A stretch of DNA of 64,000 bases from an uncultured Gammaproteobacteria bacterium. Lineage in GTDB: Bacteria > Patescibacteriota > Microgenomatia > Levybacterales > GWA1-39-11. Shown in pieces: positions 21,362 to 62,501 of this stretch. Position 1 is the first letter of the stretch. The number at the start of each line of letters is the position of its first letter. Under the pieces are notes generated by a model, which made no database searches, was not told where the DNA came from, and saw only the letters and a list, made by a program, of their open reading frames with translations. The position numbers were made by a program, and so were the translations under genes. The stretch is from NCBI GenBank assembly GCA_964472415.1, contig CAYYLC010000001.1:239194-303193 (forward strand). The letters are read 5' to 3'.

Positions 21362-21363
21362 AG

Positions 21364-21711
21364 TTATAGCGCTTTGAGATTGTTTTTAACAAGCCCGGAT
21401 ACAGTATAATTGACTACTAGGTCATTGTCGACTATCTCAATGCCTCCTCCCAATGTTGCATCGTGGATATACTGGATATTTTTATCTGCATATTTTTTTT
21501 CTAACTCCCGTTTGATATTATCAGGAATAGTTCCGGCGTGTTTCACTGTGATATTTTTGTGTGCATATGTTTTTTTCAAGTTCCTTAAGAACATTTTGAG
21601 TTCTTCTTTGCTAAGATTCTTCAAAATATAATCAGTAAGTTTTCTATCTATGTTTCCATCTTTTTCGATTGCTTCTTTTGTAATAAATTGTAGTGTTTTG
21701 TTTCGTATCAT
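21364..21711 (-). CDS. atpH: ATP synthase delta (OSCP) subunit, unusually short at 115 aa
   Basis: Sits between atpF and atpA with an ATGA start/stop overlap with atpF. The C-terminal part resembles OSCP, but about 60 N-terminal residues of a normal delta are missing. Confidence 0.6.
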
Positions 21712-45607: not shown

Positions 45608-46069
45608 ATGCGCAAAATAAAGCGAATCCCTATAACACAAGAAGGGTTTGATGCACTGAGAAAAAAATTACAGGATTTAAAAAATATGAGGCCTCAGGCA
45701 GTAGAGACGCTTTCTGATGCACGCAAGATGGGAGATCTATCTGAAAATGGACTATACAGTGCCGCAAAAATGCGCCTGAGGTCTATTGATTCGCAGATTT
45801 TTCGACTTACTATTCAGATACGACTTGCAGATATTATCTTAGATTTAGGGAATGATGTCGTGCGACTTGGTTCAAGAGTTACGATTTCTGATGGTGAAAA
45901 AACTCGTACATTCCATATTGTAGGTCACTATGAGGCAGATCCTTTGAGTGGAAAGATATCGAGCCTTTCGCCAATTGGGAAAGGTCTTATGAGAAAAAAA
46001 GTTGGAGATAAGGGGGAAATTATTACGCCACAAGGAAAAACCACCTTTACAATTTTACAAATTCAGTAG
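45608..46069 (+). CDS. greA: Transcription elongation factor GreA
   Basis: IPITQEGFDALRKKLQDL coiled-coil N-terminus plus the FKBP-like C-terminus; 153 aa. Confidence 0.85.
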   Translation: MRKIKRIPITQEGFDALRKKLQDLKNMRPQAVETLSDARKMGDLSENGLYSAAKMRLRSIDSQIFRLTIQIRLADIILDLGNDVVRLGSRVTISDGEKTRTFHIVGHYEADPLSGKISSLSPIGKGLMRKKVGDKGEIITPQGKTTFTILQIQ

Positions 46070-48349
46070 CTCGTCTTCTTCGTCAGGGGTTGGTGAGATT
46101 TCGTCAGGAGTTGGTGAGGCTTTGTTTGGGATAGTTGGAATAAGAATTATTGATTGTGTCGGAGTTGGAGTATTGCTCGGATTATTATTGTCATTAGTAT
46201 CATCTTCCTCACTTTCATCACCATCATTATCATCGTTGTTATTATCACTAGCATTTTCATCCGGTGTGGGGGTGGGTGTTGGGATATCGCATTGTCTATC
46301 AGGAACAGTTCCTCTGAGGAAGAATTCAGGGTACGCAGAAGATGTTGCGAAATCAATAAGACCTCCATCTTCAAAACATACTTCTTGTTTTATAATGCCA
46401 TTTGGCTGTCTAAAATTTTCTATTCGTGTTATTTGTTTAAATCCTGCTTCCATAATCTGTCTCCAAATAGGGGCGGCACCTAAAGATCCTGCGATACTTG
46501 TCATGGGGCTATTGTCATTATTTCCGATCCATACTCCTACAGCGAGTTGTGGTGTGTATCCTACAGTAAGTGCGTCACGGTAATCATCTGTAGTTCCGGT
46601 TTTAACAGCTGCGGGGCGAGATACAGTGAGTGCTTCGCCGAAAGTATCTTGGCGTGCAGCATTATCTGAAAGAATAGAGCTTATGAGAAATGCGACTGTT
46701 TCAGGAAGCGCACTGCTGCTATCTGGATTTGATTTATATATCCTTTTTCCATTTTTATCTTGTATTTCAGTGAGGAGTGAATATTCATTCCACTCACCTT
46801 GATTTGCAAATGTAGCATAGGCATTTGTTATTTCGATAAGTGGTACTTCTGCAGATCCAAGAACGAAGGGGAGCCCATAGTCCAAATCATCTGATAATGT
46901 AGTAATCCCGAGGTCTTGAGCAAATTCTATCCCTTTATTAACTCCGAGCATATTCATTACATGGACTGCTGGAATATTGAGAGAATTTGAAAGTGCATAG
47001 CGAATAGTTACTTCACCACGAAACGAATTGTCATAGTTTCTTGGACGGTAAGTCCCAAATGTTATTGGCTCATCCTTTATTTGGGTAGATGGAGTGATAA
47101 GTCGTTCTTCAAATGCTTTTGCATAAATTATCGGCTTAAATGACGATCCAGGTTGTCGTGGCCGAATTGCCATGTTGATACGACCATTTTCAGTATCATT
47201 CCAATCATAGCTTCCCACCAGAGCTCGTACCTCACCAGTGTCAGGATCAATCACAACTGCAGCGCCATTGGTTACCTGCGAACCTTTTAGTCTGTTTACT
47301 TGTGCTTCTACTGCATTCTGGGCGGCAGTCTGCAGACTTAAATCAAGCGTTGTGTGTACTACATATCCACTTTTTGCGACATCTCGTTCACCAAATTTAT
47401 CGATAAGAAAATCCTGGATCATTAATGCGAAATGAACACCTTGTTCATTCATATCTTGCTCTGTTGGATTAAATATTATATTTTCTTCTTGAGCTCTATT
47501 CATTTCTTCTTCAGTGATGTGTTTTTGTTCATACATGAGTGAGAGAACGAGATTTTTTCGATTTAGTGCTGCATCCAAATTTCCCGTGAGTGGCGAGTAG
47601 TATGATGGCGCGCGGATAATTCCTGCTAGTAATGCACTTTCGGCAAGTGTAAGTTCTGATGCATCCTTTGAGAAGTAGCGCATTGCTGCATCTGCAATAC
47701 CAAATGCACCTTCTCCATAAAAATTCGTGTTTATATATAGTTCAAGAATGTCATCTTTTGAATATCGTCGCTCGAGTTCGAGTGCAAGGACTAGTTCTTG
47801 GTATTTTCTGAGTAAATGCTTATCTGGAGACAATATGGCATTTTTTATGAGTTGTTGAGAGATTGTAGATCCTCCTTGGATACTCGATTGCGAGAGGATA
47901 TTTTCTCGAAATGCCCGAGCAATTCCTGTGATGGAAAATCCCGGATGACTATAGAAATCTTTATCCTCTATCGCAATAAAAGCATATTTCGTATACGCTG
48001 GAAGCGTATCGAGAGCAACAGGGTTTTTTGTAGTAGCATCAAAGAGGGTGAAAAACGCTTCTCCGCTCCGGTCAAGTAAAATTATTCCCTCGTTCTTTTT
48101 ATTCAGAATCCGATCTTTAGACGAAAGATCTCTTACAAAATAAAGATATGTCGCAATAGGAATCAAGATCATAATAACGATTCCAATGAGAATTGCGTAC
48201 TTTAGATATCTCCGATTTTTCTTTATAAAATGGAAAATATCTTCCTTTCTAAGATTTCGTATCTTGTGATATTGCTCTTTTAAATACGTTTTATCGATTT
48301 TCTTGTTCAATATCACAAAAGATTTGAGCTTGTCTGATAACGACCTCAT
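46055..48349 (-). CDS. Class A penicillin-binding protein (bifunctional transglycosylase/transpeptidase) with an acidic Pro/Thr-rich C-terminal tail
   Basis: GT51 motifs (EDKDFYSHPG, GGSTISQQL), transpeptidase SxxK/SxN/KTG (SFKP, KTGTT), and a C-terminal low-complexity tail of about 90 aa. Confidence 0.88.
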   Translation of the reverse strand: MRSLSDKLKSFVILNKKIDKTYLKEQYHKIRNLRKEDIFHFIKKNRRYLKYAILIGIVIMILIPIATYLYFVRDLSSKDRILNKKNEGIILLDRSGEAFFTLFDATTKNPVALDTLPAYTKYAFIAIEDKDFYSHPGFSITGIARAFRENILSQSSIQGGSTISQQLIKNAILSPDKHLLRKYQELVLALELERRYSKDDILELYINTNFYGEGAFGIADAAMRYFSKDASELTLAESALLAGIIRAPSYYSPLTGNLDAALNRKNLVLSLMYEQKHITEEEMNRAQEENIIFNPTEQDMNEQGVHFALMIQDFLIDKFGERDVAKSGYVVHTTLDLSLQTAAQNAVEAQVNRLKGSQVTNGAAVVIDPDTGEVRALVGSYDWNDTENGRINMAIRPRQPGSSFKPIIYAKAFEERLITPSTQIKDEPITFGTYRPRNYDNSFRGEVTIRYALSNSLNIPAVHVMNMLGVNKGIEFAQDLGITTLSDDLDYGLPFVLGSAEVPLIEITNAYATFANQGEWNEYSLLTEIQDKNGKRIYKSNPDSSSALPETVAFLISSILSDNAARQDTFGEALTVSRPAAVKTGTTDDYRDALTVGYTPQLAVGVWIGNNDNSPMTSIAGSLGAAPIWRQIMEAGFKQITRIENFRQPNGIIKQEVCFEDGGLIDFATSSAYPEFFLRGTVPDRQCDIPTPTPTPDENASDNNNDDNDGDESEEDDTNDNNNPSNTPTPTQSIILIPTIPNKASPTPDEISPTPDEEDELLNL
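46078..46118 (-). repeat. Near-perfect tandem duplication of about 21 bp in the PBP tail-coding region (encodes SPTPDEI/SPTPDEE)
   Basis: ttcgtcaggggttggtgaga / ttcgtcaggagttggtgagg read directly. Coordinates are +/-1 because this region showed a 1-nt disagreement with the ORF track when counted by hand. Confidence 0.5.
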
Positions 48350-48539: not shown

Positions 48540-50894
48540 ATGTGGGTATTGCTAAGAAATATTCTTATTGTGGGTATCTTGGGAACATTTTTTTTGTCGG
48601 GTTTCCCATCGGATAAATTTGTGTATTATGCAACACAAGATATTTTTTATGGGAATCTTATCCAGAAGGATTTTGCTCAACTTTTCAAGCCGGAAGTGAA
48701 AAAAATACAGGCTGCAAATTTTTCTATGCAGACAGGATATTATATAGGATCTGGTTCGACGCTCTCTATTTCTGGCCTTGGATTCCAGCCGGATTTCATA
48801 TTGATCAAATCAGACACAAATGCTGGAGAGGCAGTGTTTAAAACGAGTGCGATGGCAAGCACAAATATGGCACTCATTGGTCCTGCTGCAGATAACACTA
48901 CTTCACAGATAACGATTGATTCAGATGGATTTACTGTAGGTAATATCGCCTACGTAAATAGAATTAATGATAGATATAATTGGGTGGCATTTGGAGGATC
49001 TGATTGTAGTTCAAGTGGAACATTTTGCGTAGGTCAGTATACGGGTAACGGATCATCTCCACGAAAAATTTCTACAGGATTCCAGCCAGATTTTGTACTA
49101 GCGAAGCATTCAACTGCAAATTTTTCAGCACATTTTCATACAGCTTCTCAGCCAGATAATGAAATTGGATATCTTACAAATTCTGTGCGAAATACGAGCG
49201 GGAACTATATTCGAGACTTCGTGTCAGATGGTTTTAATGTAGGACATTCCGGTTCATCAGGAAATAATGTAAATGGGCAGACATATAACTATATTGCTTT
49301 CAAGGCGACAAGCGGAATATTTTCAGAAGGAAGCTATACTGGCAATAACACGGATAATAGAAACATCACTGGAGTTGGGTTTAAGCCGGATTTTGTGCTG
49401 GTAAAAAGTATTAGTGCTTCTCCAGGAACGATAAATATTTCCGAAACTTATGGAGATTATGGAATACTGTTAACTGCTGTTGCAAGCAGTACTAATAATA
49501 TTCAAGAACTTCAGAGTGATGGGTTCCAAGTGGGGACTGCTACGACAGTAAATGCAAATGCTGATACATATTATTGGGTGGCATTTGGGGGCTCTGCCGA
49601 TTATACGTCTAGCGGAACCTTTCGTATGGATGTGGGATCGTATACTGGCACTGGGACCTCTCAATCTATCACAGGATTAGGATTCGCGCCAGATTTGGTT
49701 ATTATTAAAGCTCATAATGGAAACTACTCTGTTTTTAGAACCAGCATGATGAGAAATGATTTAACGAATTACCTTGCTGTGTCTGCGGGAGATTTTACGC
49801 AGGGAATAACGTCTCTTGATTCAGATGGATTTACTGTGGGATTGAGTTCTATTGTAAATACCAATGGCATTACCTATGAATGGCAGGCATTCGGGAATGC
49901 ATATAATCCATATACTAATACTGGGGCTTCTGATTTTGCGATAGGCGCATATATCGGAAACGGTGTGGATAATAGGAACATAGTCAAACTTCCCTGGCAG
50001 CCGGATTTTATCGCGACAAAAAGGAACACAACTTCACCATTGGTATGGAGATCATCTGTTATGGGGGGGGATGTTTCCAGCTCTTTGAATGCAACTGCTG
50101 ATAGTTCAAATAAGATACAAGCATTTAATAGTGATGGGTTTCAAGTGGGTTCTGATGATACTGCAAACTTCTCTGGGAGCTTATATCGGTGGTTTGCGTT
50201 TAAACAAGGGAGTAGTTTTGCAGTAGGAGGTTATACAGGGAATTCTACGGACAATCGTGATATTACTGATGTAGGGTTCCAGCCAGATTTGGTTTTTGTT
50301 AAAGGTACGGCAGGTGTGAATGGTGTGTTCCGATCGAGCTCTCTTACGGGAGATAGTTCTCAGTATTTCATAAATTTACCAAATACGAGTGACCGGATTC
50401 AGTCCCTTCTCTCGAATGGGTTTCAGTTGGGAGGAAATCAAACAGAAACAAATACAAATGCTAGTATTTATCGATATATCGCATGGAAAATCCCATCGAG
50501 CGCGCCTGAAGTTTCAGTTACGATAACAACTGATGGAACGATAAATTACGGAACGATAAATTCTGGTGAGACTATAAGTACTCTCAATCTTTCTGATACG
50601 CAAACTGTCCAGAATGACGGAGGAGTACCGATAGATATAAATATAAAAACAAGTACCCCAGAGGGATGGACATTGGGTTCAGTTTCTGGCACAGACACAT
50701 TTATTCATGAATTTTCTACAAATGCAGGATCTGATTGGATAGAATTTATTGCTGAAGATACGTATCAATCTTTTTGGAGTAATTTGGGAGTTGATGATAC
50801 GAAAAATTTTGATTTACGTTTTACTTCACCAAATCCTTCTACAGTTGCTACAGAGAAGATTATTTCCGTAACTATTCAAGCAGTCGAGCACTAG
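48540..50894 (+). CDS. Large secreted or anchored protein: N-terminal TM/signal anchor, six tandem repeats of about 100 aa, and a C-terminal beta-rich domain of about 130 aa containing a WTLG motif
   Basis: Repeats share Y(T/I)GNG...R.I.G(L/V)GF(Q/K)PD(F/L)V..K...(FR/FK)(T/S)S.M.......SDGF.VG......N.....Y.W(V/F)AFGGS, seen directly six times. The C-terminal domain is paralogous to ORF 50947-51477. Confidence 0.6.
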   Translation: MWVLLRNILIVGILGTFFLSGFPSDKFVYYATQDIFYGNLIQKDFAQLFKPEVKKIQAANFSMQTGYYIGSGSTLSISGLGFQPDFILIKSDTNAGEAVFKTSAMASTNMALIGPAADNTTSQITIDSDGFTVGNIAYVNRINDRYNWVAFGGSDCSSSGTFCVGQYTGNGSSPRKISTGFQPDFVLAKHSTANFSAHFHTASQPDNEIGYLTNSVRNTSGNYIRDFVSDGFNVGHSGSSGNNVNGQTYNYIAFKATSGIFSEGSYTGNNTDNRNITGVGFKPDFVLVKSISASPGTINISETYGDYGILLTAVASSTNNIQELQSDGFQVGTATTVNANADTYYWVAFGGSADYTSSGTFRMDVGSYTGTGTSQSITGLGFAPDLVIIKAHNGNYSVFRTSMMRNDLTNYLAVSAGDFTQGITSLDSDGFTVGLSSIVNTNGITYEWQAFGNAYNPYTNTGASDFAIGAYIGNGVDNRNIVKLPWQPDFIATKRNTTSPLVWRSSVMGGDVSSSLNATADSSNKIQAFNSDGFQVGSDDTANFSGSLYRWFAFKQGSSFAVGGYTGNSTDNRDITDVGFQPDLVFVKGTAGVNGVFRSSSLTGDSSQYFINLPNTSDRIQSLLSNGFQLGGNQTETNTNASIYRYIAWKIPSSAPEVSVTITTDGTINYGTINSGETISTLNLSDTQTVQNDGGVPIDINIKTSTPEGWTLGSVSGTDTFIHEFSTNAGSDWIEFIAEDTYQSFWSNLGVDDTKNFDLRFTSPNPSTVATEKIISVTIQAVEH
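50063..50070 (+). repeat. Homopolymeric G8 tract inside the coding sequence of the large repeat protein
   Basis: atgggggggga read directly. G runs of this length are rare in a 37 % GC genome and form a potential slipped-strand site. Confidence 0.7.
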
Positions 50895-50946
50895 ATTGCC
50901 TATTGACTGAATAAAGATTATTTGATTTACTGATACCATAAGTACA

Positions 50947-51477
50947 ATGAAAGTGTCTATTCGTACTAAAAACATTACAAAAAGATCGATATTTTTTCAT
51001 TTATCGTTGATTATGTTCCTTTTTTCAATGGTTGTGCTGCCAGTGCGGGCAGCAAGTACAGATTCTGTTACCGCAACAGTTACTGTCCAGAACATATCAG
51101 TCTCAGTTTCAGATGGTGCTATTGCATACGGTACTTTGGCGCTAAATTCTTCCGCTGGTACGAATGGGATAGATACGCAAACTGCAGAAAACGATGGTAA
51201 TGTTACAGTAGACTTCAATATTCGTGGTCAAGACACCGCAAACTGGACACTGGGTGCTACAGCTGATTCTGATCTGTATGTTCATCGGTTTTGTACAGAA
51301 ACTTGCGATTCTGCACCTACAAACTATACTGCATTAACAACAAACTATCAGACACTTGCCGAGAGTAAGGCAGCAGAGGCAACGCAGACATTTGATCTTC
51401 ATATCTCTACTCCTACATCGACAGCTAACTATACAGAACAGTCAGCAGATGTTACCGTACAAGCAGCCCTTCCATAA
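50947..51477 (+). CDS. Secreted beta-rich protein (signal peptide plus one domain paralogous to the C-terminal domain of the upstream large protein; WxL-like motif NWTLG)
   Basis: Signal peptide then DGAIAYGT...QTAENDGNVTVDFNI...NWTLGATADSDLYVHRF...QTFDLHISTP...VTVQA, which aligns to the big protein C-terminus DGTINYGT...QTVQNDGGVPIDINI...GWTLGSVSGTDTFIHEF...KNFDLRFTSP...VTIQA. Confidence 0.6.
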   Translation: MKVSIRTKNITKRSIFFHLSLIMFLFSMVVLPVRAASTDSVTATVTVQNISVSVSDGAIAYGTLALNSSAGTNGIDTQTAENDGNVTVDFNIRGQDTANWTLGATADSDLYVHRFCTETCDSAPTNYTALTTNYQTLAESKAAEATQTFDLHISTPTSTANYTEQSADVTVQAALP

Positions 51478-51530
51478 AGATATAAAATTCTTCAACATTT
51501 CTGTAATCACTTATGTATAATAATGAATAG

Positions 51531-52196
51531 ATGAGAAGGTTAATACTGTACATATTCTTAGGACTTATTTTCTTTACTATTCCCATTCAGTCGTTTGCAA
51601 AAATTGGCGTAGGAGTCGGGACGGGAAAAATTCAAGTTGACGATGATTTAAAGCCAGGAATTATCTATCAACTTCCCTCACTTACCGTATTTAATACCGG
51701 TGATGTGGATTCTGAATACACAGTGAATGTTGCATATCACGAGAAACAGCCAGAACTACGGCCTGAAAAATCGTGGTTACAGTTTTCTCCTGCTGAATTT
51801 GAGCTTAAACCAGGAGAGTCACAGGAAGTCCAGATAAAATTAAACCTTCCTGTGCGAACTGAGCCAGGAGACTACTTCGCGTATTTAGAAGGGAGCCCGA
51901 TTACCAAAAGTGCGAATGGGGCAACTACTGTAGGCATTGCTGCTGCTGCAAAATTATATTTCACGATAGTACCGGGAAATATTTTAGAGGGTATATATTT
52001 TAAATTGCTTTCTATGTGGGATATATACGCACCGTGGCCACAGGTAATTCTTGGAATTATCGTGGTGATGGGGATAATTCTTCTCGGCAAAAAATACCTC
52101 AATATTCAAATAAATGTAAAGGGGGACAAACGTAAATCTCCAAAGAAACTTGAAGCACAAGAAAAGCTAGCTAATGAGGAGATTGATAAAAAGTAA
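51531..52196 (+). CDS. Cell-surface protein with a signal peptide, a beta-rich ectodomain and a C-terminal TM anchor with a basic tail (architecture like DUF916/DUF3324 CscA-type proteins)
   Basis: Signal peptide, an ectodomain of about 150 aa, then ...LYFTIVPG plus a TM helix plus KKYLNIQINVKGDKRK. Confidence 0.5.
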   Translation: MRRLILYIFLGLIFFTIPIQSFAKIGVGVGTGKIQVDDDLKPGIIYQLPSLTVFNTGDVDSEYTVNVAYHEKQPELRPEKSWLQFSPAEFELKPGESQEVQIKLNLPVRTEPGDYFAYLEGSPITKSANGATTVGIAAAAKLYFTIVPGNILEGIYFKLLSMWDIYAPWPQVILGIIVVMGIILLGKKYLNIQINVKGDKRKSPKKLEAQEKLANEEIDKK

Positions 52197-52204
52197 TAGG
52201 ATGG

Positions 52205-52882
52205 ATGAACAGAGCAAATCAGATTGCAAGAATAATAACGTTCTTCGTTATATTCTTCCCCTTTGGATTATATGAGATTTATGCCCAGAGTAGCACTACA
52301 ATTATTGATGCAACGGTCAAGATCAGTATCTGTGGGAATGAAATAATTGAAGGAGGAGAGGACTGTGAAGGATCAAATCTCAATAATCAAACATGTCAGT
52401 CAGTAGGATATGGCCCAGGAAATCTTACGTGTGATATAGCCTGTACGTATGACGTAACCAATTGCTTAAGCCCTTCACCAACTCCTTCACCAATTCCTAC
52501 TATAATCCCTACACTTACTCCAACGGAAGGAGTAAGTCCGTCTCTTCCACAATTAGATAGTATTTCACCGTCGCCTTATTTGCTACAAAGTCCTATATTG
52601 CAGCCAAGTGTTTCTATATCGCCACGAATTACAGAATTAAGACCTCTCGGTACGGAGCTTCCAGAAAGCTTGCAGTATTTTGACTTTCGGGGTATCGGGA
52701 AAATCTTACTTTCAGATCTAACAGATGTTGTTGCCATTTGGGTAGATGGATGGAGAAATGTATTGCGTGAAGATGGGTCGAAAGGTGCGGTTTTACCAGA
52801 TCTGCAGAAATGTGATATGAATAATGATGGATTGTGTAATTTAACAGATTTTTCAATACTTATGTCATATATTGAATCGTAA
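52205..52882 (+). CDS. Secreted protein with an N-terminal Cys-rich repeat (CGNEIIEGGEDCEG type), a Pro/Ser/Thr linker and a C-terminal dockerin-like Ca-binding module
   Basis: The C-terminal CDMNNDGLCNLTDFSILMSYI fits the dockerin repeat consensus D-x-N-x-DG-x-(V/C)-N-x-x-D-x-x-x-L-x-x-Y position by position. The Cys-rich module resembles the Myxococcus-type cysteine-rich repeat. Confidence 0.6.
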   Translation: MNRANQIARIITFFVIFFPFGLYEIYAQSSTTIIDATVKISICGNEIIEGGEDCEGSNLNNQTCQSVGYGPGNLTCDIACTYDVTNCLSPSPTPSPIPTIIPTLTPTEGVSPSLPQLDSISPSPYLLQSPILQPSVSISPRITELRPLGTELPESLQYFDFRGIGKILLSDLTDVVAIWVDGWRNVLREDGSKGAVLPDLQKCDMNNDGLCNLTDFSILMSYIES

Positions 52883-52885
52883 ATT

Positions 52886-53899
52886 ATGAGTAGAAAATTG
52901 TGGGGCTTTAGTTTTATTTTTATTAGTATATTTTTAGCGCTTTTGCTTTGGATTTTGATTCATGTTCTTGCATTTTTTGGAGTATTTCTCGCTTTTGCGT
53001 ATCCTATTTGGTGGTTATTTTTTCCGCGACAAACAGTCTGTTTTTTCTGCAGGGTGCAGCGTGAAGGATCAAGTTGTCTGTTATGTAAACAGCGAATTAT
53101 TAAGCGTAATGGGGTCGTGCCGCAGACACTGCGTTCTGCTATTCTAAATGGTATTTTTTTGCTCCTTTTTTCACTTCTTTCTCTAGGAATTGTGTACGGG
53201 GAAAGTCAGATTTTATCTCTTTTTGGATTTCCGACAACTTCAAAAACTGCATCGTTTTCTACTCCCTCTCAAGGTCAATATAAAATACATGAAATATTTC
53301 CTATGGAAATAATCATAGAAAATATCGATAATCCTATTAATGCAATCCAGGCAGATATAGGATTTGATCCGGAAAAAGTTACAATTGTAGATATCACAAC
53401 TGATGAGTCATTTGCAAAAGTTTTTCTTCAGAAGGAAATCAATAATTCCGCCGGTTGGGCGCGACTCACTGGAGGACTTCCGAATCCAGGATGGAGCGGT
53501 GACAAAGGGATTTTTGGAGTCGTGTACTTTAGGGCAAAGAATGCAGGACTCGTGAGTATAGATTTTCTTTCTTCGTCAATGATACTTGCAAATGATAATC
53601 ATGGAACAGATGTCTTGAAGAGTTTACCGAGTGCAAATTATGTTATTCTTCCGGAAGAATTATCCCCAGATGAAATCCAGGAACAAATGAAATTCTTTGT
53701 TGATCAAGATACTTTCGGAATTAGTACAAGAGATGCACAGTTAAAATTTTATGAAGAGCAAGAAATGTTAGATCCGCAGGAATTTTCACGAGAAAAAAGT
53801 ACCAAAGATTCCATTTTCCCCCATTATCCTTTACAGGTTTTGGCAAAAGTTGATAATTTTATTATCGATTTTTGGAAGAATATTTTTAGAAATGGGTAG
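52886..53899 (+). CDS. Membrane protein with N-terminal TM helices, a Cys4 cluster (CFFC...CLLC) and an extracytoplasmic cohesin-like domain
   Basis: INAIQADIGFDPEKVTIVDIT...GDKGIFGVVYFRAKNAGLVSIDF parallels the cohesin core (I..(C/A)DF.(Y/F).YDP.VLE(I/V)..I...G..G.F..I.FK.K..G...I.F). Confidence 0.55.
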   Translation: MSRKLWGFSFIFISIFLALLLWILIHVLAFFGVFLAFAYPIWWLFFPRQTVCFFCRVQREGSSCLLCKQRIIKRNGVVPQTLRSAILNGIFLLLFSLLSLGIVYGESQILSLFGFPTTSKTASFSTPSQGQYKIHEIFPMEIIIENIDNPINAIQADIGFDPEKVTIVDITTDESFAKVFLQKEINNSAGWARLTGGLPNPGWSGDKGIFGVVYFRAKNAGLVSIDFLSSSMILANDNHGTDVLKSLPSANYVILPEELSPDEIQEQMKFFVDQDTFGISTRDAQLKFYEEQEMLDPQEFSREKSTKDSIFPHYPLQVLAKVDNFIIDFWKNIFRNG

Positions 53900-57034: not shown

Positions 57035-57107
57035 GGCCCCATCGTCTAGTGGCCTAGGACACCGGGCTTTCATCCCGGCAACACGGGTTCGACTCCCGTT
57101 GGGGTCA
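57035..57107 (+). tRNA. tRNA-Glu (anticodon UUC)
   Basis: Acceptor GGCCCCA/TGGGGTC, anticodon stem CCGGG/CCCGG with loop CTTTCAT, T arm ACGGG-TTCGACT-CCCGT, discriminator A. Confidence 0.85.
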
Positions 57108-58587
57108 CATTTCGAGATAAGGAATCTTCAAACTCCCTGTTTAGCTTGAATGGAAGGGCTAAGTCGTGGTTCGAAACCTTCTCAAATTGATACTTTACCC
57201 CTCTAGGAAAAATCATTGTTTGTAATTTGATTTTGAAGAGAGGTGGAGCGTCAAACCATATCAAATTAACGGTTTGAATGAAGTTCTGAGCATATGCAAG
57301 ACAAACTTTAATTTCACCCTCATCAGTCTTTGTCTCATGTAAGCCTAACTCTGCAATAGCAATCTGATCTCTTATTTGAGAAAGCTCTTCATTTGATTCT
57401 TCGTCTGTTAAGATCTGTTTCTTGCTCATTTGTATTATTCGAGCCTTTTCAGCTTGTAATCTCTGTATTTCACTCTTGAGTCTAATAGTATCTCCTTCCA
57501 ACTCCTGAATTCTGTTACGATACACTCGAATAAACATTTCCTTAAATAATTCTATCGTGTCTTCGTTTGGCTTTACATGCCCAAGCAGGTTATAAAAATC
57601 CTCGTGTAAATCATTTCGCTTATATGTTTTACCTCTTAACTCGCATCCTTTTCTAACACAGTAATACTTTGGATATTTTTTAGTTCTCCCTTTACACCAT
57701 GCAGCAGTCATAGGTACCCCACATTCTTTGCATTGGATAAATCTTCTCATTGGAAAATCTTCATTTTCTGTATTTCTTTTCATTTTACCTATATTTGATT
57801 TTCGAAGTATGACTTCATGACACTTATAGAATGTGTGTTCATCAGTGAGAGGCGTGTGTATTCCTTTTGTCTCAACTCCGTACTTACTAATTACTCCCAT
57901 ATAAAACTTATCACGGAGTATTTTGTGGATTAGCTGAGGATGAATTTTCATTCCTTTCTTACTCTTAATTCCTCTTCTATTAAGTTCATCTGCTAAATTC
58001 TTATAAGTATAATGTCCAGTAGAGAACTTCTTAAACAACTCGGTTACTATTGGTCCTTTAATAGGATCTAGAGCCATGATTGCATGATCTGTTTCATCTT
58101 TTTTATTGATGTACCCGAACTTAGCTCCCCAAACCCATCTTCCTTTAAGTACCCATCCTTGCATAGCTTCTGTAACACGTGTAGATTTAATATCATTATC
58201 TAACTGTGCTACAGCTGCAAATAGTCCTTCTATTACTTTCCCCATACCAGTGTCGTCAATTGGTTCGGTAGCAGACCTAAGACTAATGTCATATTCAAGT
58301 AGTCTTGCTTTAATTGCGAAGTGATCCATTTGGTTCCTAGCTAATCGGTCAATTTTATAAACTAAACACACATTCACTTTGCCTTTATTGATTCGACAGT
58401 ACTCAATAAGTTCTTTTAGTTGAGTTCTTTTTGTGGTTTTGGCGGATTCACCTTCTTCTTTGAAGATCTTTACGATTTTCCACCCATTCTCTTGAGCATA
58501 TTTTTTACATGAGGCAATTTGTGCATCAAAGCTGATATTGCCTATCTGACTAGGATCTGATACTCGGATATAAAGAATAACATTCAT
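57070..58587 (-). CDS. Large serine recombinase (integrase): resolvase catalytic domain, recombinase domain and zinc ribbon
   Basis: YIRVSDPSQ (catalytic Ser), KIDRLARN, recombinase domain and C4 ribbon CKECG...YYCVRKGC. The last 12 codons are encoded by the complement of the tRNA-Glu 3' half (38-nt overlap). Confidence 0.85.
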   Translation of the reverse strand: MNVILYIRVSDPSQIGNISFDAQIASCKKYAQENGWKIVKIFKEEGESAKTTKRTQLKELIEYCRINKGKVNVCLVYKIDRLARNQMDHFAIKARLLEYDISLRSATEPIDDTGMGKVIEGLFAAVAQLDNDIKSTRVTEAMQGWVLKGRWVWGAKFGYINKKDETDHAIMALDPIKGPIVTELFKKFSTGHYTYKNLADELNRRGIKSKKGMKIHPQLIHKILRDKFYMGVISKYGVETKGIHTPLTDEHTFYKCHEVILRKSNIGKMKRNTENEDFPMRRFIQCKECGVPMTAAWCKGRTKKYPKYYCVRKGCELRGKTYKRNDLHEDFYNLLGHVKPNEDTIELFKEMFIRVYRNRIQELEGDTIRLKSEIQRLQAEKARIIQMSKKQILTDEESNEELSQIRDQIAIAELGLHETKTDEGEIKVCLAYAQNFIQTVNLIWFDAPPLFKIKLQTMIFPRGVKYQFEKVSNHDLALPFKLNREFEDSLSRNVTPTGVEPVLPG

Positions 58588-58633
58588 ATTATTTCAATTT
58601 TATTAATCTATATTTAGTATAGCTTTTTTGAGC

Positions 58634-59353
58634 CTATTTTTGTGAATTTTTCTTTAAGAAATCAATGATTTTTGTATTAAAAATTGCTCCTGGAACTCTC
58701 ACTGTCTTATCTTGTTCTATCTCACTGGCAAATTGAAATAATATGTGAGCTGGAACACCTTTTTTAATTGCTGCTAAGTATGTTGTCTGAAGTGATTTAT
58801 GATTATTAGGTTCTAGTCTTTTGAATACCTCAAAGGCTGCAAATGTATCATTATCTGTTGGTTCAAAAGTATTAGGATCTAGTTCTTTATGCTCTTTTTT
58901 GCGAGATGATATTTCTAGTTCGCTTTCATTATTCTGTATTTTATTTGATTTAATTAAATTAGATTGGGGTGACCACTGGTTGTCTTTTGGCGGTACATTG
59001 GCTGTACTTTGTCTGTCCTCGTATGCTGGAATTTGTGATTTGCGAAATCTATTCTTTCTAATTTGCTGATGATCAAGCCATGAAGGAAACTCTATATACC
59101 ATTCACCATTTCTTTCCCATCTAATTATCAGTTTTTGAGTTGTTATTTCATCAAGGAACTTTTCAATATCAGAGTGTTTATATTCAGTCATGGGAAAAAC
59201 TTTCCCTTTTATATAATCAAATTCTCCTCTAATCCTTCCTTCATCATCCGCATGTGCAATCATCCAAGTGAATAAAAGTCTAGCTTCAAGTGATAGTCGA
59301 TTTACCTGAAGTGAGGTTGATATTTTCCAATGCAACATTCTTGCTTTTGCCAT
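58634..59353 (-). CDS. Putative replication-initiation / replisome-organizer-like protein (phage/plasmid type)
   Basis: N-terminal RLSLEARLLFTWMIAHADDEGRIRG...LIIRWERNGEWYIEFPSWLDHQ resembles the winged-helix N-domain of phage replisome organizers / DnaD-like initiators. This is a weak, by-eye call. Confidence 0.3.
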   Translation of the reverse strand: MAKARMLHWKISTSLQVNRLSLEARLLFTWMIAHADDEGRIRGEFDYIKGKVFPMTEYKHSDIEKFLDEITTQKLIIRWERNGEWYIEFPSWLDHQQIRKNRFRKSQIPAYEDRQSTANVPPKDNQWSPQSNLIKSNKIQNNESELEISSRKKEHKELDPNTFEPTDNDTFAAFEVFKRLEPNNHKSLQTTYLAAIKKGVPAHILFQFASEIEQDKTVRVPGAIFNTKIIDFLKKNSQK

Positions 59354-59504
59354 TTCTATTTATTTTTAATTTCTATATATCTATCAATAATTAAGTTAGA
59401 CAATACATATAAGTGATCTATAATCTCCTGAATTTGTTTATCTGTATATTTGAGATTACTGTCTCCTATTATTTTTCGTGCTTCTTTAATTGTTATTAAC
59501 ATAG

Positions 59505-59747
59505 TTAGCTAAAAATCAAATCCTTTAATTCTGATAACTTTGTGTTAAGCTCTTTGGGATTTACTACTGCACGATCTAGCCAGTATTCATTAACTAGAGA
59601 TTCACATAATTTTGAATCTTCAAATAGAAAGATTGCTTCTTTGGGGTTAGTTTTATTGATTCCAGCAAACTGAACCTTCCTAGTAGTTTGTAGATATGCT
59701 GCGAGGATTAGGGATTTAGTTTTGTAATATCTATCTGCTGTATTCAT
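59505..59747 (-). CDS. Hypothetical small protein (80 aa) of the mobile element
   Basis: ORF only; compact spacing within the element operon. Confidence 0.3.
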   Translation of the reverse strand: MNTADRYYKTKSLILAAYLQTTRKVQFAGINKTNPKEAIFLFEDSKLCESLVNEYWLDRAVVNPKELNTKLSELKDLIFS

Positions 59748-59821
59748 ATTCTGTGCTCAATTTGATATGAGTACAGTTTATTTGAAGTAGATAATTATTA
59801 GTATGGTGGTTTATGTTGCTA

Positions 59822-60700
59822 TTAAACCTCAGGTGAAAAACGTTTTAGTAGCTTTTTATATTCTGACACTGCGTGATAGATGTAATTATCATCATCTATA
59901 TAGCAGTTATCGCATCTTTGAGTTCCATTGTGGTGAGTCAAGTATTCATGTAAATCTGGACGTTCATTCCATTTTTTTATAATTTTTTTATAGTTACCTT
60001 TTGTCTGTACACTCCAATACCACTCTCTGTCACGCTTAATGTTTCTGTGAGTATCTTTCTTTAGCTTGCTATAAATAGAAAGTTCACCTAAATGATTTTC
60101 ATTTTGCATGTTTAGCAAATCACTTACTGCTGCATAAATATCTTTTTTAGTAGTAAATGGCATAACTTCAATTCCAGTAATAACTTCTCGCTCTGTCAAG
60201 ATATCAGTAGGCTGAGAGGGTAGATATGGTATCTCTTCTGAAAATGCTCTTGCGGTTTTAAGCGATGATACTTTGTGTTCTAAGATCACGTTTAGAATTA
60301 CATATTCAAAAATTCTAGGATAGTGAAATTTCAACCTAAGTATTCTTAATTCCTCAAAAAAATTTTTCTCTATTTCATCTACTTTTGACTGAATTTTTTC
60401 AAACACTTCATATTCAGTGTTACTTTTTCTATTGCGAATGAAAGTGTTTGGATCAACCCCATTTAATGGATCGGACTCATCTTCAAGTCTGTAATACTCT
60501 TTCGGATTGTAACCCGCAAGTTTTATGAAATGATCAAATAAACTATCACGTACTCCTTCTACTTTTAATTCAAGAGGAGGAATTATTTTGTACTTATCTC
60601 TTATTCGTTTAACTGACTCTAGAAATAGTGGTTGATCTACCAAAAAAGCAACAAGAGCATAATTACGGCTATTCTCAATATCTATCTGGACTTGTTTCAT
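59822..60700 (-). CDS. Hypothetical protein (292 aa) of the mobile element
   Basis: ORF only; no motif recognised. Confidence 0.35.
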   Translation of the reverse strand: MKQVQIDIENSRNYALVAFLVDQPLFLESVKRIRDKYKIIPPLELKVEGVRDSLFDHFIKLAGYNPKEYYRLEDESDPLNGVDPNTFIRNRKSNTEYEVFEKIQSKVDEIEKNFFEELRILRLKFHYPRIFEYVILNVILEHKVSSLKTARAFSEEIPYLPSQPTDILTEREVITGIEVMPFTTKKDIYAAVSDLLNMQNENHLGELSIYSKLKKDTHRNIKRDREWYWSVQTKGNYKKIIKKWNERPDLHEYLTHHNGTQRCDNCYIDDDNYIYHAVSEYKKLLKRFSPEV

Positions 60701-60724
60701 GACTATATCAATATCTAGCTTGAA

Positions 60725-61090
60725 TTATATAAAATTCTTTACTGGAACAGATATTTTTGCGAATCTTCGTTGTGTTATTCCTGTTTCTCCTGACCTGATT
60801 CTTTGATTGACTTTCCTTCGTAGTTCTCTATATGTATCTTCATTGGCTGCTTGAATTGTGCTTTTATGCTTCTGTAGTGCAGTATGTAATCTTTTTGCAT
60901 CTGCCTTTGAGAGATATCTTTTCTTTTGAATCCATGCTCTGTGTGAGAGTTTCCAGTATCGATAGTAAAAGTAGGGACCGTGCAGGTCACCTTTCAGACA
61001 CTTACAGCCTCTCTTACCACATTTGACCATTTGTGAATGGATATTGCCAGGTGTCTTGATCACTGAATCAAGTATTTTTATGTCCTTCAT
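60725..61090 (-). CDS. Small basic Zn-ribbon protein (CGKRGCKC...HGPY); candidate DNA-binding / recombination-directionality-type factor
   Basis: C-x4-C-x-C followed by HGPYFYY and a Lys/Arg-rich C-terminal half; first gene of the element operon. Confidence 0.35.
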   Translation of the reverse strand: MKDIKILDSVIKTPGNIHSQMVKCGKRGCKCLKGDLHGPYFYYRYWKLSHRAWIQKKRYLSKADAKRLHTALQKHKSTIQAANEDTYRELRRKVNQRIRSGETGITQRRFAKISVPVKNFI

Positions 61091-61174
61091 ACTATGATTC
61101 TATCAAATCTTAGGACACAAAAAAGGCATTTTAGGGCTCTCCATGCAAGGTCAAATTAAATGGTCAAAGTATAG

Positions 61175-62501
61175 CTTCAAAAACTGAAATGTACTAAAAC
61201 TTTGGTCCTTGTAATACCAATACACCAACACAAAATAACAGGAAATACATGGGTTAATATGCAAGATTTTGTAATTTACCTTGTAATTAGCAAGGGTAAT
61301 CAATACATGAATCAAGATTATATGGATTACATCTCTTCAATCGATTTACAGTCTTTACTTAAAAGTACTTTGTGATGAGATATTCGGTAGGCATAATTTT
61401 GTAACTAGTGTTATATGGCAAAAAATTCATAGTACTAAGAACGATGCAAAATATCTTTCTGTTAATCATGATTACATACTTATTTATGCAAAGAATATAG
61501 ACAAAATCAAAATTCCATTGCTTCCTAGAACAGAAAAAATGAATGCAAGATACAAAAATCCAGATAACGATCCACGTGGACCTTGGCAATCTGGGGATCT
61601 TGTAGCTAATGAAGAAAGAACAAATGGAAGATTTGAAATTATTGGTCCAACAGGAAAATCATTTAATGTACCAGCTGGTAAACATTGGGTATATACAAAA
61701 TCTAAATTACAAGAAATGATCAATGATGACAGAATATGGTTCGGTAAAAATGGTGATTCTTTTCCAAGAAAAAAGAGGTTCTTAACAGAAGTTCAACAGG
61801 GAAAAAAAGCAGATACATGGTGGATCAGCGAAGAAGTAGGACATAATCAAGAAGGTAAAAGAGAAGTATTGAAATTTAATCCTGATGATGTATTTGCTAC
61901 TCCAAAACCTGAGAGATTACTACATCGAATTATAACTTTAGCTACAAATGAAGGAGATATAGTATTAGACAGCTTTGCAGGCTCTGGTACAACTGGAGCT
62001 GTTGCACATAAGATGAATAGAAAATGGATAATGGTAGAACTTGGTAATCATGCAGAAACACACATTATCCCACGTATGAAAAAAGTTGTTGAAGGCAAAG
62101 ATGGTGGTGGAATTTCTAAACTTGTGGACTGGCAAGGTGGCGGTGGATTCAAGTATTTTGAATTAGGTGAAAGCCTCTTTGTCAAAGATGGTGATCTCAG
62201 ACTTACTGTTATCAATCCCAAAATGTATAACGGTGCTCTCATCAGAGCTATATTGAAATTAGAAGGCTTCAAAGTTGTAAACCCTGATAATGGTTTGCAT
62301 GGTAAGTCTGGAACAACTGTAGCTCATGTCACAGAGCAGTATGTAAGCCAAGAATATATTGATACCCTACTCAATGAGATAGGAGATCAGGCAAAGTTTG
62401 TTGTTATATATGCAAAAACTATCTCAAGTAATGTAAAATTGCCTGATAATGTAGAGATAAAGAGAATACCAGATATTCTCCTAAAGAAATTTACCGTATG
62501 A
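61175..62501 (+). pseudogene. Type III restriction-modification Mod (N6-adenine methyltransferase, beta class): the N-terminal region is degenerate and frameshifted, only the C-terminal about 330 aa remain as an intact ORF
   Basis: Intact part: FATPKPERLLHRII...DSFAGSGTTGAVAH (motif I FxGxG) from a TTG-start ORF at 61518-62501. Upstream, frame 0 reads LCDEIFGRHNFVTSVIWQK...HDYILIYAK, which is Mod-like but is preceded by a stop at 61308. A different frame reads ...NTGN..DFVIY..YISSID ending in a stop at 61373. The expected DPPY is degenerated to PIHQ, and no start codon is found. Confidence 0.55.

What the first reader, a model, noticed from the sequence alone, without database searches (positions are those of the whole stretch)
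48540..52196. Surface-protein island: 784-aa protein with six tandem repeats of about 100 aa, a small paralog of its C-terminal domain and a C-terminally anchored partner (Csc/WxL-like organisation)
Seen: the large ORF has an N-terminal hydrophobic anchor and six repeats of about 100 aa sharing YTGNG...GFQPDFV.(I/A)K...FRTS.M...SDGF.VG...Y.WVAFGGS. It ends in a domain of about 130 aa (DGTINYGT...NDGGVPIDINI...GWTLG...FDLRF...VTIQA). The next ORF is a signal peptide plus a single copy of that same domain (DGAIAYGT...NDGNVTVDFNI...NWTLG...FDLHI...VTVQA). The third ORF has a signal peptide, a beta-rich ectodomain and a C-terminal TM anchor with a Lys-rich tail.

Inference: this triad (large WxL-type protein, small WxL-type protein, DUF916/DUF3324-like membrane-anchored protein) mirrors the cell-surface-complex (csc) clusters of lactobacilli and enterococci. 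The WTLG motif is reminiscent of the WxL domain, but I cannot confirm family membership by eye. The 100-aa repeat does not match any repeat family I recognise and may be lineage-specific.
Basis: partly seen in the sequence, partly recalled or inferred. Interest (0 to 1): 0.65.

Follow-up and report, generated by a model that had tools for sequence, protein, structure and literature searches.

The report
Pilus-like surface operon of CPR bacteria
The three genes are real but are part of a five-gene operon conserved across the ultra-small Patescibacteria (CPR) that most likely builds a thin adhesive surface fibre by strand-swapping between subunits; it resembles, but does not belong to, the WxL/Csc surface clusters of lactic acid bacteria.

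Summary
p1 (784 aa) has six ~100-aa repeats and a C-terminal domain; p2 (176 aa) is a paralogue of that domain; p3 (221 aa) is a signal peptide, beta-sandwich and C-terminal TM helix.

- No WxL, DUF916 or DUF3324 HMM hit in 140 family members, while real WxL clusters score 1e-43 to 1e-51.
- Profile-profile similarity to WxL disappears once signal peptides are trimmed.
- The repeat is not lineage-specific. It is Pfam DUF7483, shared with marine-phage tail fibres.

The unit is a five-gene operon (48540-53899) that also encodes a dockerin-like protein (p4) and a membrane cohesin protein (p5). The order LARGE-small-p3-p4-p5 recurs in 69 Patescibacteria genomes.
- p3 has a PapD-like Ig fold. Its second-best solved match is enterococcal WxLIP, followed by fimbrial chaperones.
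- A low-confidence p2 model ranks chaperone-usher pilins first.
- Small proteins carry a highly conserved N-terminal strand that the large proteins lack; p4 starts with a similar strand.

Best reading: an usher-less donor-strand fibre, with p1 as tip adhesin, p2 as shaft, p3 as tethered chaperone and p4/p5 as base anchor. It is akin to the Pam pili described in a 2026 preprint. Homology to Pam could not be tested.

The parts
48540..50894 (+). p1: 784-aa 'LARGE' protein. It has an N-terminal hydrophobic leader, six DUF7483 repeats and a C-terminal p2-like acceptor domain. Proposed role: tip adhesin.
   Evidence: ORF. Pfam DUF7483 at 171.8 bits (cut-off 27), six stretches. PHROG 24898 'tail fiber protein' and 19943 'virion structural protein'. 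tblastn matches in 28 phage records.
48720..50501 (+). Six tandem DUF7483 repeats of p1 (aa 61-654). Copy boundaries in nt: 48720, 49020, 49317, 49617, 49932, 50214.
   Evidence: Alignment A5: 14 invariant columns, 24-40% identity to the first copy. Coordinates.
50508..50888 (+). C-terminal domain of p1 (aa 657-783), paralogous to p2. It lacks the N-terminal strand of the small proteins and the Cys pair.
   Evidence: BLASTP against p2: 36% identity, E = 2e-18. Family HMM: E = 4.8e-26, HMM positions 47-173.
50947..51477 (+). p2: 176-aa secreted protein consisting of a signal peptide, a conserved N-terminal strand and the shared beta-domain. Proposed role: shaft subunit that both donates and accepts a strand.
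   Evidence: 469 close homologues, all unannotated and from Patescibacteria. 1396 representatives. Alignment A1. Low-confidence model whose best structural matches are chaperone-usher pilins.
51052..51096 (+). N-terminal strand of mature p2 (aa 36-50, ASTDSVTATVTVQNI). Proposed donor strand.
   Evidence: Positions 41 and 43-46 are 87-95% conserved in 85 small proteins but only 16-42% in 69 large ones. The segment is unplaced (pLDDT < 50) in the monomer model.
51531..52196 (+). p3: signal peptide, conserved N-terminal strand IGVGVGTGKIQV, one PapD-like Ig domain (aa 27-146), amphipathic helix, TM helix (168-189) and Lys-rich tail. Proposed role: membrane-tethered chaperone or anchor.
52205..52882 (+). 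p4: signal peptide, N-terminal strand IIDATVKISI, six-Cys module (C43-C87), Pro/Thr/Ser linker and a dockerin-like C-terminus (aa ~150-225). Proposed role: strand-donating terminator.
   Evidence: Pfam Dockerin_1 at 18.3 bits (below the 22.9 cut-off) in the window, but 23.2 bits in the orthologue of L086. Conserved gene position. N-terminal consensus T[IV]xAT[VI]K[IL]S[VI]CG[ND].
52886..53899 (+). p5: membrane protein with hydrophobic segments at aa 10-28 and 85-110, a CxxC...CxxC zinc ribbon at 52-67 between them, and a cohesin domain at aa 136-237. Proposed role: membrane socket for the p4 dockerin.
   Evidence: Pfam Cohesin at 26.3 bits (cut-off 24.1). The Daviesbacteria orthologue scores 24.7 bits and also has a weak double zinc ribbon hit. 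Hydropathy and Cys positions. Conserved gene position.

Best explanation
The region is a five-gene operon specific to Patescibacteria (CPR). I infer that it assembles an adhesive surface fibre by donor-strand complementation, with no outer-membrane usher.

Proposed roles:
- p1 and its 'LARGE' counterparts in other genomes carry a variable, adhesin-like N-terminal part. In p1 this is six phage-tail-fibre-type DUF7483 modules. They also carry a C-terminal pilin-like domain that can accept a strand but has none to donate, so they cap the distal end.
- p2 is the minimal subunit: the same domain preceded by a highly conserved N-terminal strand that fills the groove of the preceding subunit. It forms the shaft, or at least an adaptor.
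- p3 is a PapD-like Ig domain held at the membrane by a C-terminal helix. It caps or primes subunits as they leave Sec.
- p4 begins with a p2-like strand but has no acceptor domain, so it ends the chain. Its dockerin-like tail plugs into the cohesin of the membrane protein p5 and fixes the fibre to the cell.

What is shown: gene content, paralogy, conservation of gene order, the domain families, the p3 fold, and the class-specific N-terminal strands.

What is inferred: the truncated-Ig nature of the shared domain, strand insertion, polymerisation, the order of subunits, and the p4-p5 contact.
For: 1. Distribution. The shared domain has 1396 representatives at 50% identity, and the 150 best listed fall into two classes: stand-alone ~170 aa, or the last ~130 aa of 270-1581-aa proteins. 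All 69 genome loci are Patescibacteria MAGs spanning many classes. About 15 carry Gammaproteobacteria, Pseudomonadales or Bdellovibrionales labels, which I take to be mislabels.
2. Gene order. In those loci p3 follows the small gene in 54 of 60, p4 is present in 40 of 48, p5 in 38 of 48, and a LARGE gene lies directly upstream in 28 of 45.
3. N-terminal parts of LARGE proteins are interchangeable: Gly_rich_2, fn3, DUF7483, DUF2341, cohesin, or no Pfam hit. This is expected of tip adhesins.
4. Small proteins have a class-specific strand just after the signal peptide (V41 and A43-T46, 87-95% conserved). It is absent from LARGE proteins and unplaced in the monomer model.
5. p4 starts with T[IV]xAT[VI]K[IL]S. 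The motif [VI].AT[VIA].[VILT] occurs in the first 80 aa of 54/71 small, 27/54 p4, 3/54 LARGE, 1/68 p3, 0/66 p5 and 9/1380 other ORFs. A scoring matrix built from small proteins only ranks p4 above other ORFs (AUC 0.865, p = 6e-20).
8. Precedent. Pam pili of the CPR bacterium Ca. Mycosynbacter amalyticus are donor-strand fibres with TM-anchored PapD-like chaperones and a membrane-anchored, strand-donating terminator. A tail-fibre-like gene is consistently nearby (bioRxiv 10.64898/2026.03.03.709456).
9. Cohesin in p5 passes Pfam's cut-off, and dockerin passes it in a p4 orthologue.
Against:
- p3 has one Ig domain, whereas chaperone-usher and Pam chaperones have two.
- The p2/p4 motif was noticed post hoc. 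With the p2-only matrix, just 4 of 54 p4 proteins exceed the 99th percentile of other ORFs.
- The hydrophobic N-terminus of LARGE proteins could be a membrane anchor rather than a cleaved leader, which would invert the geometry.
- In Pam pili it is the two-domain proteins that polymerise, and the single-domain protein is the tip.
- No filament has been observed for any organism carrying this operon.
Confidence: 0.45

Rival explanations
1. A WxL/Csc-type, non-polymeric cell-surface complex. The shared domain would be a wall-binding or WxLIP-binding module. p2 and p1 would sit side by side on p3, stabilised by a hairpin from p3. They would display the adhesive repeats of p1 without forming a fibre. 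The system could even be a very distant relative of WxL clusters.
For: - The organisation is the same: a small protein made of the domain alone, a large protein with the domain at its C-terminus, and an Ig-fold protein with a C-terminal TM helix (PMC9772566, PMC10599100).
- There is an invariant W-T-L preceded by R-G-x4-x, reminiscent of the first WxL motif D-x-R-G-T-x-A-G-W-x-L.
- The N-terminal strand of p3 is split in two, as described for DUF916.
- Real WxLIP gives the same weak fn3_5 hit as the p3 family.
Against: - No PF13731, PF06030 or PF11797 hit in 140 family members, while the controls are strongly positive.
- hhalign gives 0.25% after signal-peptide trimming, against 97.8% for the WxL control.
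- Only one WxL motif is present.
- p3 has a single Ig domain and lacks the NQIDKxxxYFDLK motif.
- The WxL structure 9i25 is not among the matches listed for the p2 model.
- The conserved N-terminal strands of p2 and p4, and the p4/p5 pair, have no counterpart in WxL clusters.
Confidence: 0.2
2. An orthologue of the Pam pilus system working exactly as in the preprint. The two-domain LARGE proteins would be the polymerising pilins, donating the conserved linker (VSVSVSDG) between their N-terminal part and the C-terminal domain. p2 would be the PamT-like tip or an adaptor. p3 would be the PamC/D chaperone or the PamR anchor.
For: - The architecture of N-terminal beta-domain, linker and C-terminal Ig-like domain matches PamA/B/E.
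- The segment S51-G57 at the start of the domain is the best-conserved part of LARGE proteins (S 0.97, D 0.97, G 0.94). The preprint reports the same for the donated linker.
- The preprint finds Pam homologues in Microgenomatia and a tail-fibre-like neighbour.
- Loci labelled Saccharibacteria have two p3-like genes flanking a LARGE gene and a small gene (L080, L030).
Against: - PamT lacks a donor strand, whereas p2 has the most conserved N-terminal strand of the system.
- LARGE proteins range from 270 to 1581 aa with unrelated N-terminal domains and usually occur once per operon. That fits a variable tip better than a uniform shaft.
- Pam chaperones have two domains.
- The preprint mentions neither cohesin nor dockerin.
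Confidence: 0.2
3. The proteins are separate envelope or S-layer-type components. The shared N-terminal motif of p2 and p4 would be a sorting, processing or modification signal rather than a structural donor strand.
For: - The motif lies at a fixed distance (median residue 35) behind the signal peptide in both families.
- Dedicated signal peptidases recognise such regions in TasA/TapA-type systems (my own knowledge).
- A sortase and a DsbA/VKOR pair flank the operon in Levybacteria.
Against: - No peptidase or modifying enzyme is conserved in the operon.
- The motif has the alternating pattern of a beta-strand.
- The strict co-occurrence and high conservation of p2 (60% mean column identity) and p3 (54%) across classes argue for direct physical interfaces.
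Confidence: 0.1

Closest known systems
Pam pili of Candidatus Mycosynbacter amalyticus (Troman et al., bioRxiv 2026, doi 10.64898/2026.03.03.709456)
   Same: Both are CPR-restricted. Both have Sec-secreted subunits with a C-terminal Ig-like acceptor domain. Both have PapD-like proteins kept at the membrane by a C-terminal helix, a strand-donating element that ends and anchors the fibre, no usher, and a tail-fibre-like gene nearby.
   Different: - Here the single-domain protein carries a conserved N-terminal strand, whereas PamT has none.
- The PapD-like protein has one Ig domain instead of two.
- The anchor would be a dockerin-cohesin pair (p4/p5) rather than the RbmA-like PamR.
- The family is found in essentially all CPR classes sampled, not mainly in Saccharimonadia and Microgenomatia.
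- Homology to the Pam proteins is untested.
WxL / Csc cell-surface clusters of Lactobacillales and Bacillales (small WxL, large WxL, WxLIP = DUF916 + DUF3324)
   Same: Both have the triad of a small protein made of the domain alone, a large protein with the domain at its C-terminus and adhesin domains in front, and an Ig-fold protein with a C-terminal TM helix and basic tail. WxLIP is one of the best structural matches of p3.
   Different: - There is no detectable sequence relationship.
- Only one W-x-L motif is present, against two in WxL domains.
- p3 has one Ig domain, against two in WxLIP.
- There is no LPXTG partner.
- The extra p4/p5 pair and the conserved N-terminal strands have no WxL counterpart.
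- The phylum is different.
Chaperone-usher pili (type 1, P, CFA/I class 5, archaic Csu)
   Same: The logic is the same: a two-domain tip adhesin without a donor strand, pilin subunits with an N-terminal extension, a PapD-fold chaperone, and a terminator that cannot accept a strand. These pilins are the best structural matches of the p2 model.
   Different: There is no outer membrane and no usher. The chaperone-like protein has a single domain and is membrane-tethered. No sequence similarity was found.
Usher-independent donor-strand fibres (Bacillus TasA, archaeal bundling pili, Tafi pili, threads)
   Different: Those systems have no PapD-like partner and no cohesin-dockerin pair. No sequence similarity was found, including to the NCBIfam and Pfam camelysin/TasA models.
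DUF7483 (PF24299) modules of marine-phage tail fibres and virion proteins (Pelagibacter, Synechococcus and Roseobacter phages)
   Same: The six repeats of p1 are members of this family. They are 25-33% identical to the phage proteins.
   Different: Here the modules are tandemly repeated in a cellular secreted protein and fused to the pilin-like domain. The function of the module is unknown in either context.
Cohesin-dockerin pairs of cellulosomes
   Same: p5 carries a cohesin domain above Pfam's cut-off. p4 ends in two dockerin-like calcium-loop segments.
   Different: The pair is not linked to any glycoside hydrolase. The cohesin protein is an integral membrane protein with a zinc ribbon between its hydrophobic segments. 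The dockerin match is below threshold in the window itself.

Membership tests
WxL domain (Pfam PF13731) | Match to the family HMM at or above the gathering score | tested here: not met
   No hit at E <= 1 for p1 or p2 or for 37 p2-family members. No hit at E <= 0.001 for 64 large proteins. Controls: genuine small WxL 5.1e-51 and large WxL 2.2e-11.
WxL domain (Pfam PF13731) | Two conserved Trp-x-Leu motifs on adjacent strands (PMC9772566) | tested here: not met
   There is one invariant motif (W100-T-L102) and p2 has no second Trp. The C-terminal strand reads VDVTVQA where WxL proteins have LTWTL.
WxL domain (Pfam PF13731) | Profile-profile similarity to WxL proteins | tested here: not met
   hhalign of 153 family domains against 80 WxL proteins, signal peptides removed: probability 0.25%, score 12.9. 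The 47-71% seen earlier came from the signal peptides. Control, small versus large WxL: 97.8%.
WxL domain (Pfam PF13731) | Fold of the solved WxL protein (PDB 9i25) | tested here: inconclusive
WxL domain (Pfam PF13731) | Domain always C-terminal in large proteins and alone in small ones, clustered with an Ig-fold TM protein | tested here: met
WxLIP (DUF916/PF06030 + DUF3324/PF11797) | HMM matches to both domains, two tandem Ig domains plus a TM helix, and the NQIDKxxxYFDLK motif | tested here: not met
   No hit in p3 or in 39 relatives; the control scored 3.8e-43 and 5.5e-50. p3 has one Ig domain. The motif is absent. hhalign against 7 WxLIP proteins: 9.3%.
WxLIP (DUF916/PF06030 + DUF3324/PF11797) | Structural similarity to solved WxLIP (9i1y) | tested here: met
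Pam pilus system (bioRxiv 2026.03.03.709456) | Sequence or structural homology to PamA/B/E/T pilins and PamC/D chaperones | not testable with these tools
   The Pam sequences (WP_260763277/280/282/284/285/287/289) and the models 25PZ/25QA are not in the PDB copies or in any fetched data.
Pam pilus system (bioRxiv 2026.03.03.709456) | CPR-restricted operon with pilins ending in an Ig-like acceptor domain and PapD-like proteins carrying a C-terminal TM helix | tested here: met
   Deviations: the chaperone-like protein has a single domain and no RbmA-like gene was recognised.
Classical chaperone-usher pathway | Outer-membrane usher and a periplasmic two-domain chaperone | tested here: not met
   None of the five operon genes matches an usher family, and no further gene family recurs with the operon in the related loci. 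p3 has one domain and is membrane-anchored.
DUF7483 (PF24299) | HMM match above the gathering score | tested here: met
   171.8 bits against a cut-off of 27, with six stretches, each matching profile positions ~5-117 of 330.
Cohesin (PF00963) / Dockerin_1 (PF00404) | HMM matches above the gathering score in the p5/p4 pair | tested here: inconclusive
   p5 cohesin scores 26.3 against 24.1, so that part is met. p4 dockerin scores 18.3 against 22.9 in the window, but 23.2 in the L086 orthologue. Binding was not tested.

The most novel reading that the evidence does not exclude
This may be a second, CPR-wide donor-strand fibre system, distinct from Pam pili and from every chaperone-usher class. 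Its base would be fixed to the cytoplasmic membrane by a cohesin-dockerin joint. p4 would be a strand-donating terminator, p2 a minimal pilin, a single-domain tethered PapD-like protein would replace both chaperone and usher, and interchangeable tips would include modules borrowed from phage tail fibres.
Probability: 0.3. Interest if true: 0.8.

Novelty: new variant of a known kind. Interest (0 to 1): 0.6.

Why it matters
Patescibacteria make up a large share of bacterial diversity and appear to live attached to other cells, yet apart from type IV pili their attachment machinery is almost unknown. This operon is present in many CPR classes. Its two core proteins are unusually conserved (54-60% mean column identity across classes), and none of p2, p3 or p4 has a Pfam family.

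If the operon builds a fibre, three things follow:
- It would be a general host-contact organelle of the radiation, with swappable tips.
- It would show how donor-strand assembly can work in a cell without an outer membrane.
- It would give cohesin-dockerin pairs a new role as a pilus anchor.

The resemblance in organisation to WxL clusters also suggests that the poorly understood WxL system should be examined for strand complementation.

Tried and rejected
- WxL homology by hhalign looked promising (47%, then 71% with 80 WxL sequences). This was an artefact of aligned signal peptides. After trimming, the probability was 0.25%.
- The structure of p2 was predicted with a 37-sequence alignment and came out at pLDDT 58.8.
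- The AlphaFold-database fold library was not installed, so I could not search for 'WxL'-named AFDB models.
- PDB sequence searches with p1, p2, p3, the profiles A1, A2 and A5, and a Saccharibacteria LARGE protein gave only chance-level hits.
- NCBIfam gave nothing meaningful, and no p2, p3, p4 or p5 PHROG hit was meaningful.
- The apparent extra copies of the domain inside large proteins ('2-3 stretches') are insignificant, with i-Evalue > 0.04.
- Promoter and terminator scans did not exceed shuffled expectation.
- The preprint's supplements are not held, and the window's proteins carry no source names.
- The hypothesis of a horizontally acquired 'island' was rejected on composition and on the housekeeping neighbours.

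Full report
OBSERVATION

- p1 contains six tandem repeats at residues 61-654. They align with 24-40% identity to the first copy and 14 invariant columns.
- The last ~130 residues of p1 and the mature part of p2 are paralogues: 36% identity, E = 2e-18.
- Hydropathy shows N-terminal hydrophobic segments in all three proteins and a second one in p3 at 172-190, followed by a Lys-rich tail.
- An AlphaFold2 model of p3 (mean pLDDT 85) shows one beta-sandwich (27-146), an amphipathic helix and a TM helix.

The unit is larger than reported, however. Two more genes follow after gaps of 8 and 3 nt: p4 at 52205-52882 and p5 at 52886-53899. The region has the same GC content as its housekeeping surroundings (RuvABC, a P-type ATPase, GreA, a class A penicillin-binding protein, an ATP-grasp ligase), so it is not an island.

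ORGANISM AND DISTRIBUTION

- Close homologues of p2 (469) and p3 (847) come from Patescibacteria MAGs (Daviesbacteria, Levybacteria, Dojkabacteria). Nearly all are unnamed. A few p3 relatives are labelled 'P pilus assembly chaperone PapD' by JGI.
- An exhaustive profile search found 1396 family representatives at 50% identity. The 150 best listed fall into two classes: stand-alone proteins of ~170 aa, and proteins of 270-1581 aa in which the domain occupies the very last ~130 residues.
- A scan of one genome per GTDB species returned 69 loci. All are Patescibacteria MAGs: Microgenomates lineages, Dojkabacteria/WS6, WWE3, Saccharibacteria-labelled bins, many Parcubacteria lineages, and Ca. Microsyncoccus archaeolyticus. 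About 15 carry Gammaproteobacteria, Pseudomonadales or Bdellovibrionales labels, which I take to be mislabelled bins.
- With HMMs for each component, the order LARGE - small - p3 - p4 - p5 recurs throughout, often with a second, longer p5-like gene. p3 directly follows the small gene in 54 of 60 loci with enough sequence. p4 is present in 40 of 48, p5 in 38 of 48, and a LARGE gene lies directly upstream in 28 of 45.
- The Daviesbacteria operon has a 365-aa LARGE protein with an unrelated N-terminal part but the same C-terminal domain (54% identical to p2).

THE REPEATS

The ~100-aa repeat is not lineage-specific.

- It is Pfam DUF7483 (171.8 bits, six stretches).
- It matches the PHROG families annotated 'tail fiber protein' and 'virion structural protein'.
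- tblastn finds it at 25-33% identity in 28 phage records, mostly Pelagibacter, Synechococcus and Roseobacter phages. One of these genes is annotated as the tail fibre of HTVC011P.

Other LARGE proteins carry Gly_rich_2, fn3, DUF2341, cohesin or unrecognised domains instead. The N-terminal part therefore looks like an exchangeable passenger or adhesin.

TEST OF THE WxL/Csc INTERPRETATION

I retrieved genuine WxL clusters from Enterococcus, Bacillus, Listeria and Lactobacillaceae plasmids and 70 further WxL proteins.

- In the same Pfam library these score 5e-51 (WxL) and 4e-43 and 6e-50 (WxLIP domains). None of p1-p3, 37 p2 relatives, 64 LARGE proteins or 39 p3 relatives hits any of the three families.
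- hhalign gave 47%, then 71%, probability between the p2 family and WxL. The aligned region included the signal peptides. With these removed the probability is 0.25%, whereas small versus large WxL domains give 97.8%.
- The family has a single invariant W-T-L.
- p3 has one Ig domain rather than two and lacks the DUF916 signature motif.

Verdict: the analogy of organisation is real, but membership is not supported.

WHAT THE SHARED DOMAIN LOOKS LIKE

The p2 model is poor (mean pLDDT 58.8), and the conserved N-terminal residues 32-73 fall below 50. With that caveat, two methods agree on the ranking.

- Foldseek, although not significant (best E = 0.067), also ranks CS20, FimA/F/G/I, EcpA and CfaB first.
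- The solved WxL protein 9i25 appears in neither list.

CLASS-SPECIFIC STRANDS

Column statistics on 85 small and 69 large family members show the following.

- Small proteins carry a segment just behind the signal peptidase site (V41 and A43-T46) that is 87-95% conserved.
- The corresponding columns of LARGE proteins are only 16-42% conserved. Conservation in LARGE proteins starts at S51-G57.

So the small protein has an N-terminal extension that the large one lacks. This is the arrangement of pilin versus tip adhesin in chaperone-usher pili.

Unexpectedly, p4 orthologues also start, at the same distance from the signal peptide, with T-[IV]-x-A-T-[VI]-K-[IL]-S-[VI], followed by CG[ND].

- The motif [VI].AT[VIA].[VILT] occurs in the first 80 residues of 54/71 small, 27/54 p4, 3/54 LARGE, 1/68 p3, 0/66 p5 and 9/1380 other ORFs of the same loci.
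- Because I defined that motif after seeing both families, I also built a matrix from small proteins only. It ranks p4 above other ORFs (AUC 0.865, p = 6e-20) and better than LARGE, p3 or p5. Only 4 of 54 p4 proteins exceed the 99th percentile of other ORFs.
- The similarity is therefore real at the level of pattern, but moderate.

p4 AND p5

- After the strand, p4 has a six-Cys module, a Pro/Thr/Ser linker and a dockerin-like end. Dockerin_1 scores 18.3 bits in the window and 23.2 bits, above the cut-off, in the Microsyncoccus orthologue.
- p5 has hydrophobic segments at residues 10-28 and 85-110, with a CxxC...CxxC zinc ribbon (52-67) between them. A cohesin domain follows, scoring above Pfam's cut-off (26.3 against 24.1).

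MECHANISM PROPOSED

I propose an usher-less donor-strand fibre built as follows.

- LARGE proteins (p1) act as an acceptor-only tip adhesin.
- p2 acts as a donor-and-acceptor shaft or adaptor.
- p4 acts as a donor-only terminator, and its dockerin binds the membrane cohesin p5.
- p3 acts as a membrane-tethered PapD-like chaperone.

Gene content, paralogy, conservation of gene order, domain families, the p3 fold and the strands are shown. The incomplete-Ig fold, strand insertion, polymerisation and the p4-p5 contact are inferred.

RELATION TO KNOWN SYSTEMS

A 2026 preprint describes Pam pili of the CPR bacterium Ca. Mycosynbacter amalyticus (doi 10.64898/2026.03.03.709456). Its components are:

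- a single-domain tip (PamT);
- PapD-like chaperones with C-terminal TM helices;
- a membrane-anchored, strand-donating terminator (PamR);
- a tail-fibre-like gene nearby.

The present operon follows the same principle and may be its Microgenomates counterpart. It differs in four ways. The small protein has a donor-type strand. The chaperone-like protein has one domain. The anchor would be a dockerin-cohesin pair. Cohesin and dockerin are not mentioned in the preprint.

I could not obtain the Pam sequences or models, so homology is open.

VERDICT

- The finding is real.
- The WxL label is an analogy, not membership.
- The repeat belongs to a known family of unknown function.
- The most likely function is a CPR-specific adhesive fibre of the donor-strand type.

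I rate it a new variant of a known kind. Interest is moderate to high, because the operon is so widespread and unannotated, and because the proposed strand-donating terminator with a cohesin-dockerin anchor is directly testable.

Noticed in passing
window 52205-53899: Two genes directly downstream of the reported triad are conserved with it across CPR classes. One is a Cys-rich, Pro/Thr-linker, dockerin-like protein. The other is a membrane protein with a zinc ribbon and a cohesin domain. Many loci labelled Parcubacteria have a second p5-like gene of ~570-700 aa.
   Followed up: partly
window 48540-48720 (p1 aa 1-60); loci L007, L064, L086: LARGE proteins share a conserved leader after the hydrophobic segment, with consensus GWPxxWxNPxxPPKIxxxYA. 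p1 has a diverged version (GFPSDKF ... KPEVKKIQAA). It is unknown whether this is a long cleaved signal peptide or a retained anchor.
   Followed up: partly
window 57035-62500: A 505-aa serine recombinase gene (Resolvase + Recombinase domains) overlaps the tRNA-Glu gene (57035-57108). It is followed by small unannotated ORFs (one DUF5659, one DUF6788) in a stretch where GC drops to 0.32-0.33. This may be an integrated mobile element.
   Followed up: no
window 46055-48349 (- strand): The divergently transcribed class A penicillin-binding protein ends in a ~90-residue low-complexity tail rich in Asp, Asn, Thr and Pro.
   Followed up: no
window 16442-22208 (- strand): An F-type ATP synthase operon (alpha, gamma and beta subunits confirmed by Pfam) lies about 27 kb upstream of the cluster. 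The Pam preprint reports consistent co-localisation of ATP synthase genes with pam operons within 30-kb windows.
   Followed up: partly
L015/L016 (Levybacteria) 2849-4846 and 10979-12149: In Levybacteria the operon is preceded by a PEGA-domain protein and a sortase on the opposite strand. Within 3 kb downstream lies a DsbA-like and VKOR pair, which is relevant to the conserved cysteines of p2 and p4.
   Followed up: no
L030 and L080 (L080 labelled Saccharibacteria; L030 labelled Pseudomonadales): A variant arrangement has two p3-like genes around the LARGE and small genes and no adjacent p4/p5. One p3-like protein (194 aa, L080 3845-4429) appears to lack the C-terminal TM helix. This arrangement is closest to the gene content described for the pam operon.
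   Followed up: partly
PDB entries 9i25 and 9i1y: Solved structures of a WxL domain protein and of E. faecium WxLIP1 now exist (9i1y released January 2026). I found no paper describing them in the library.
   Followed up: no
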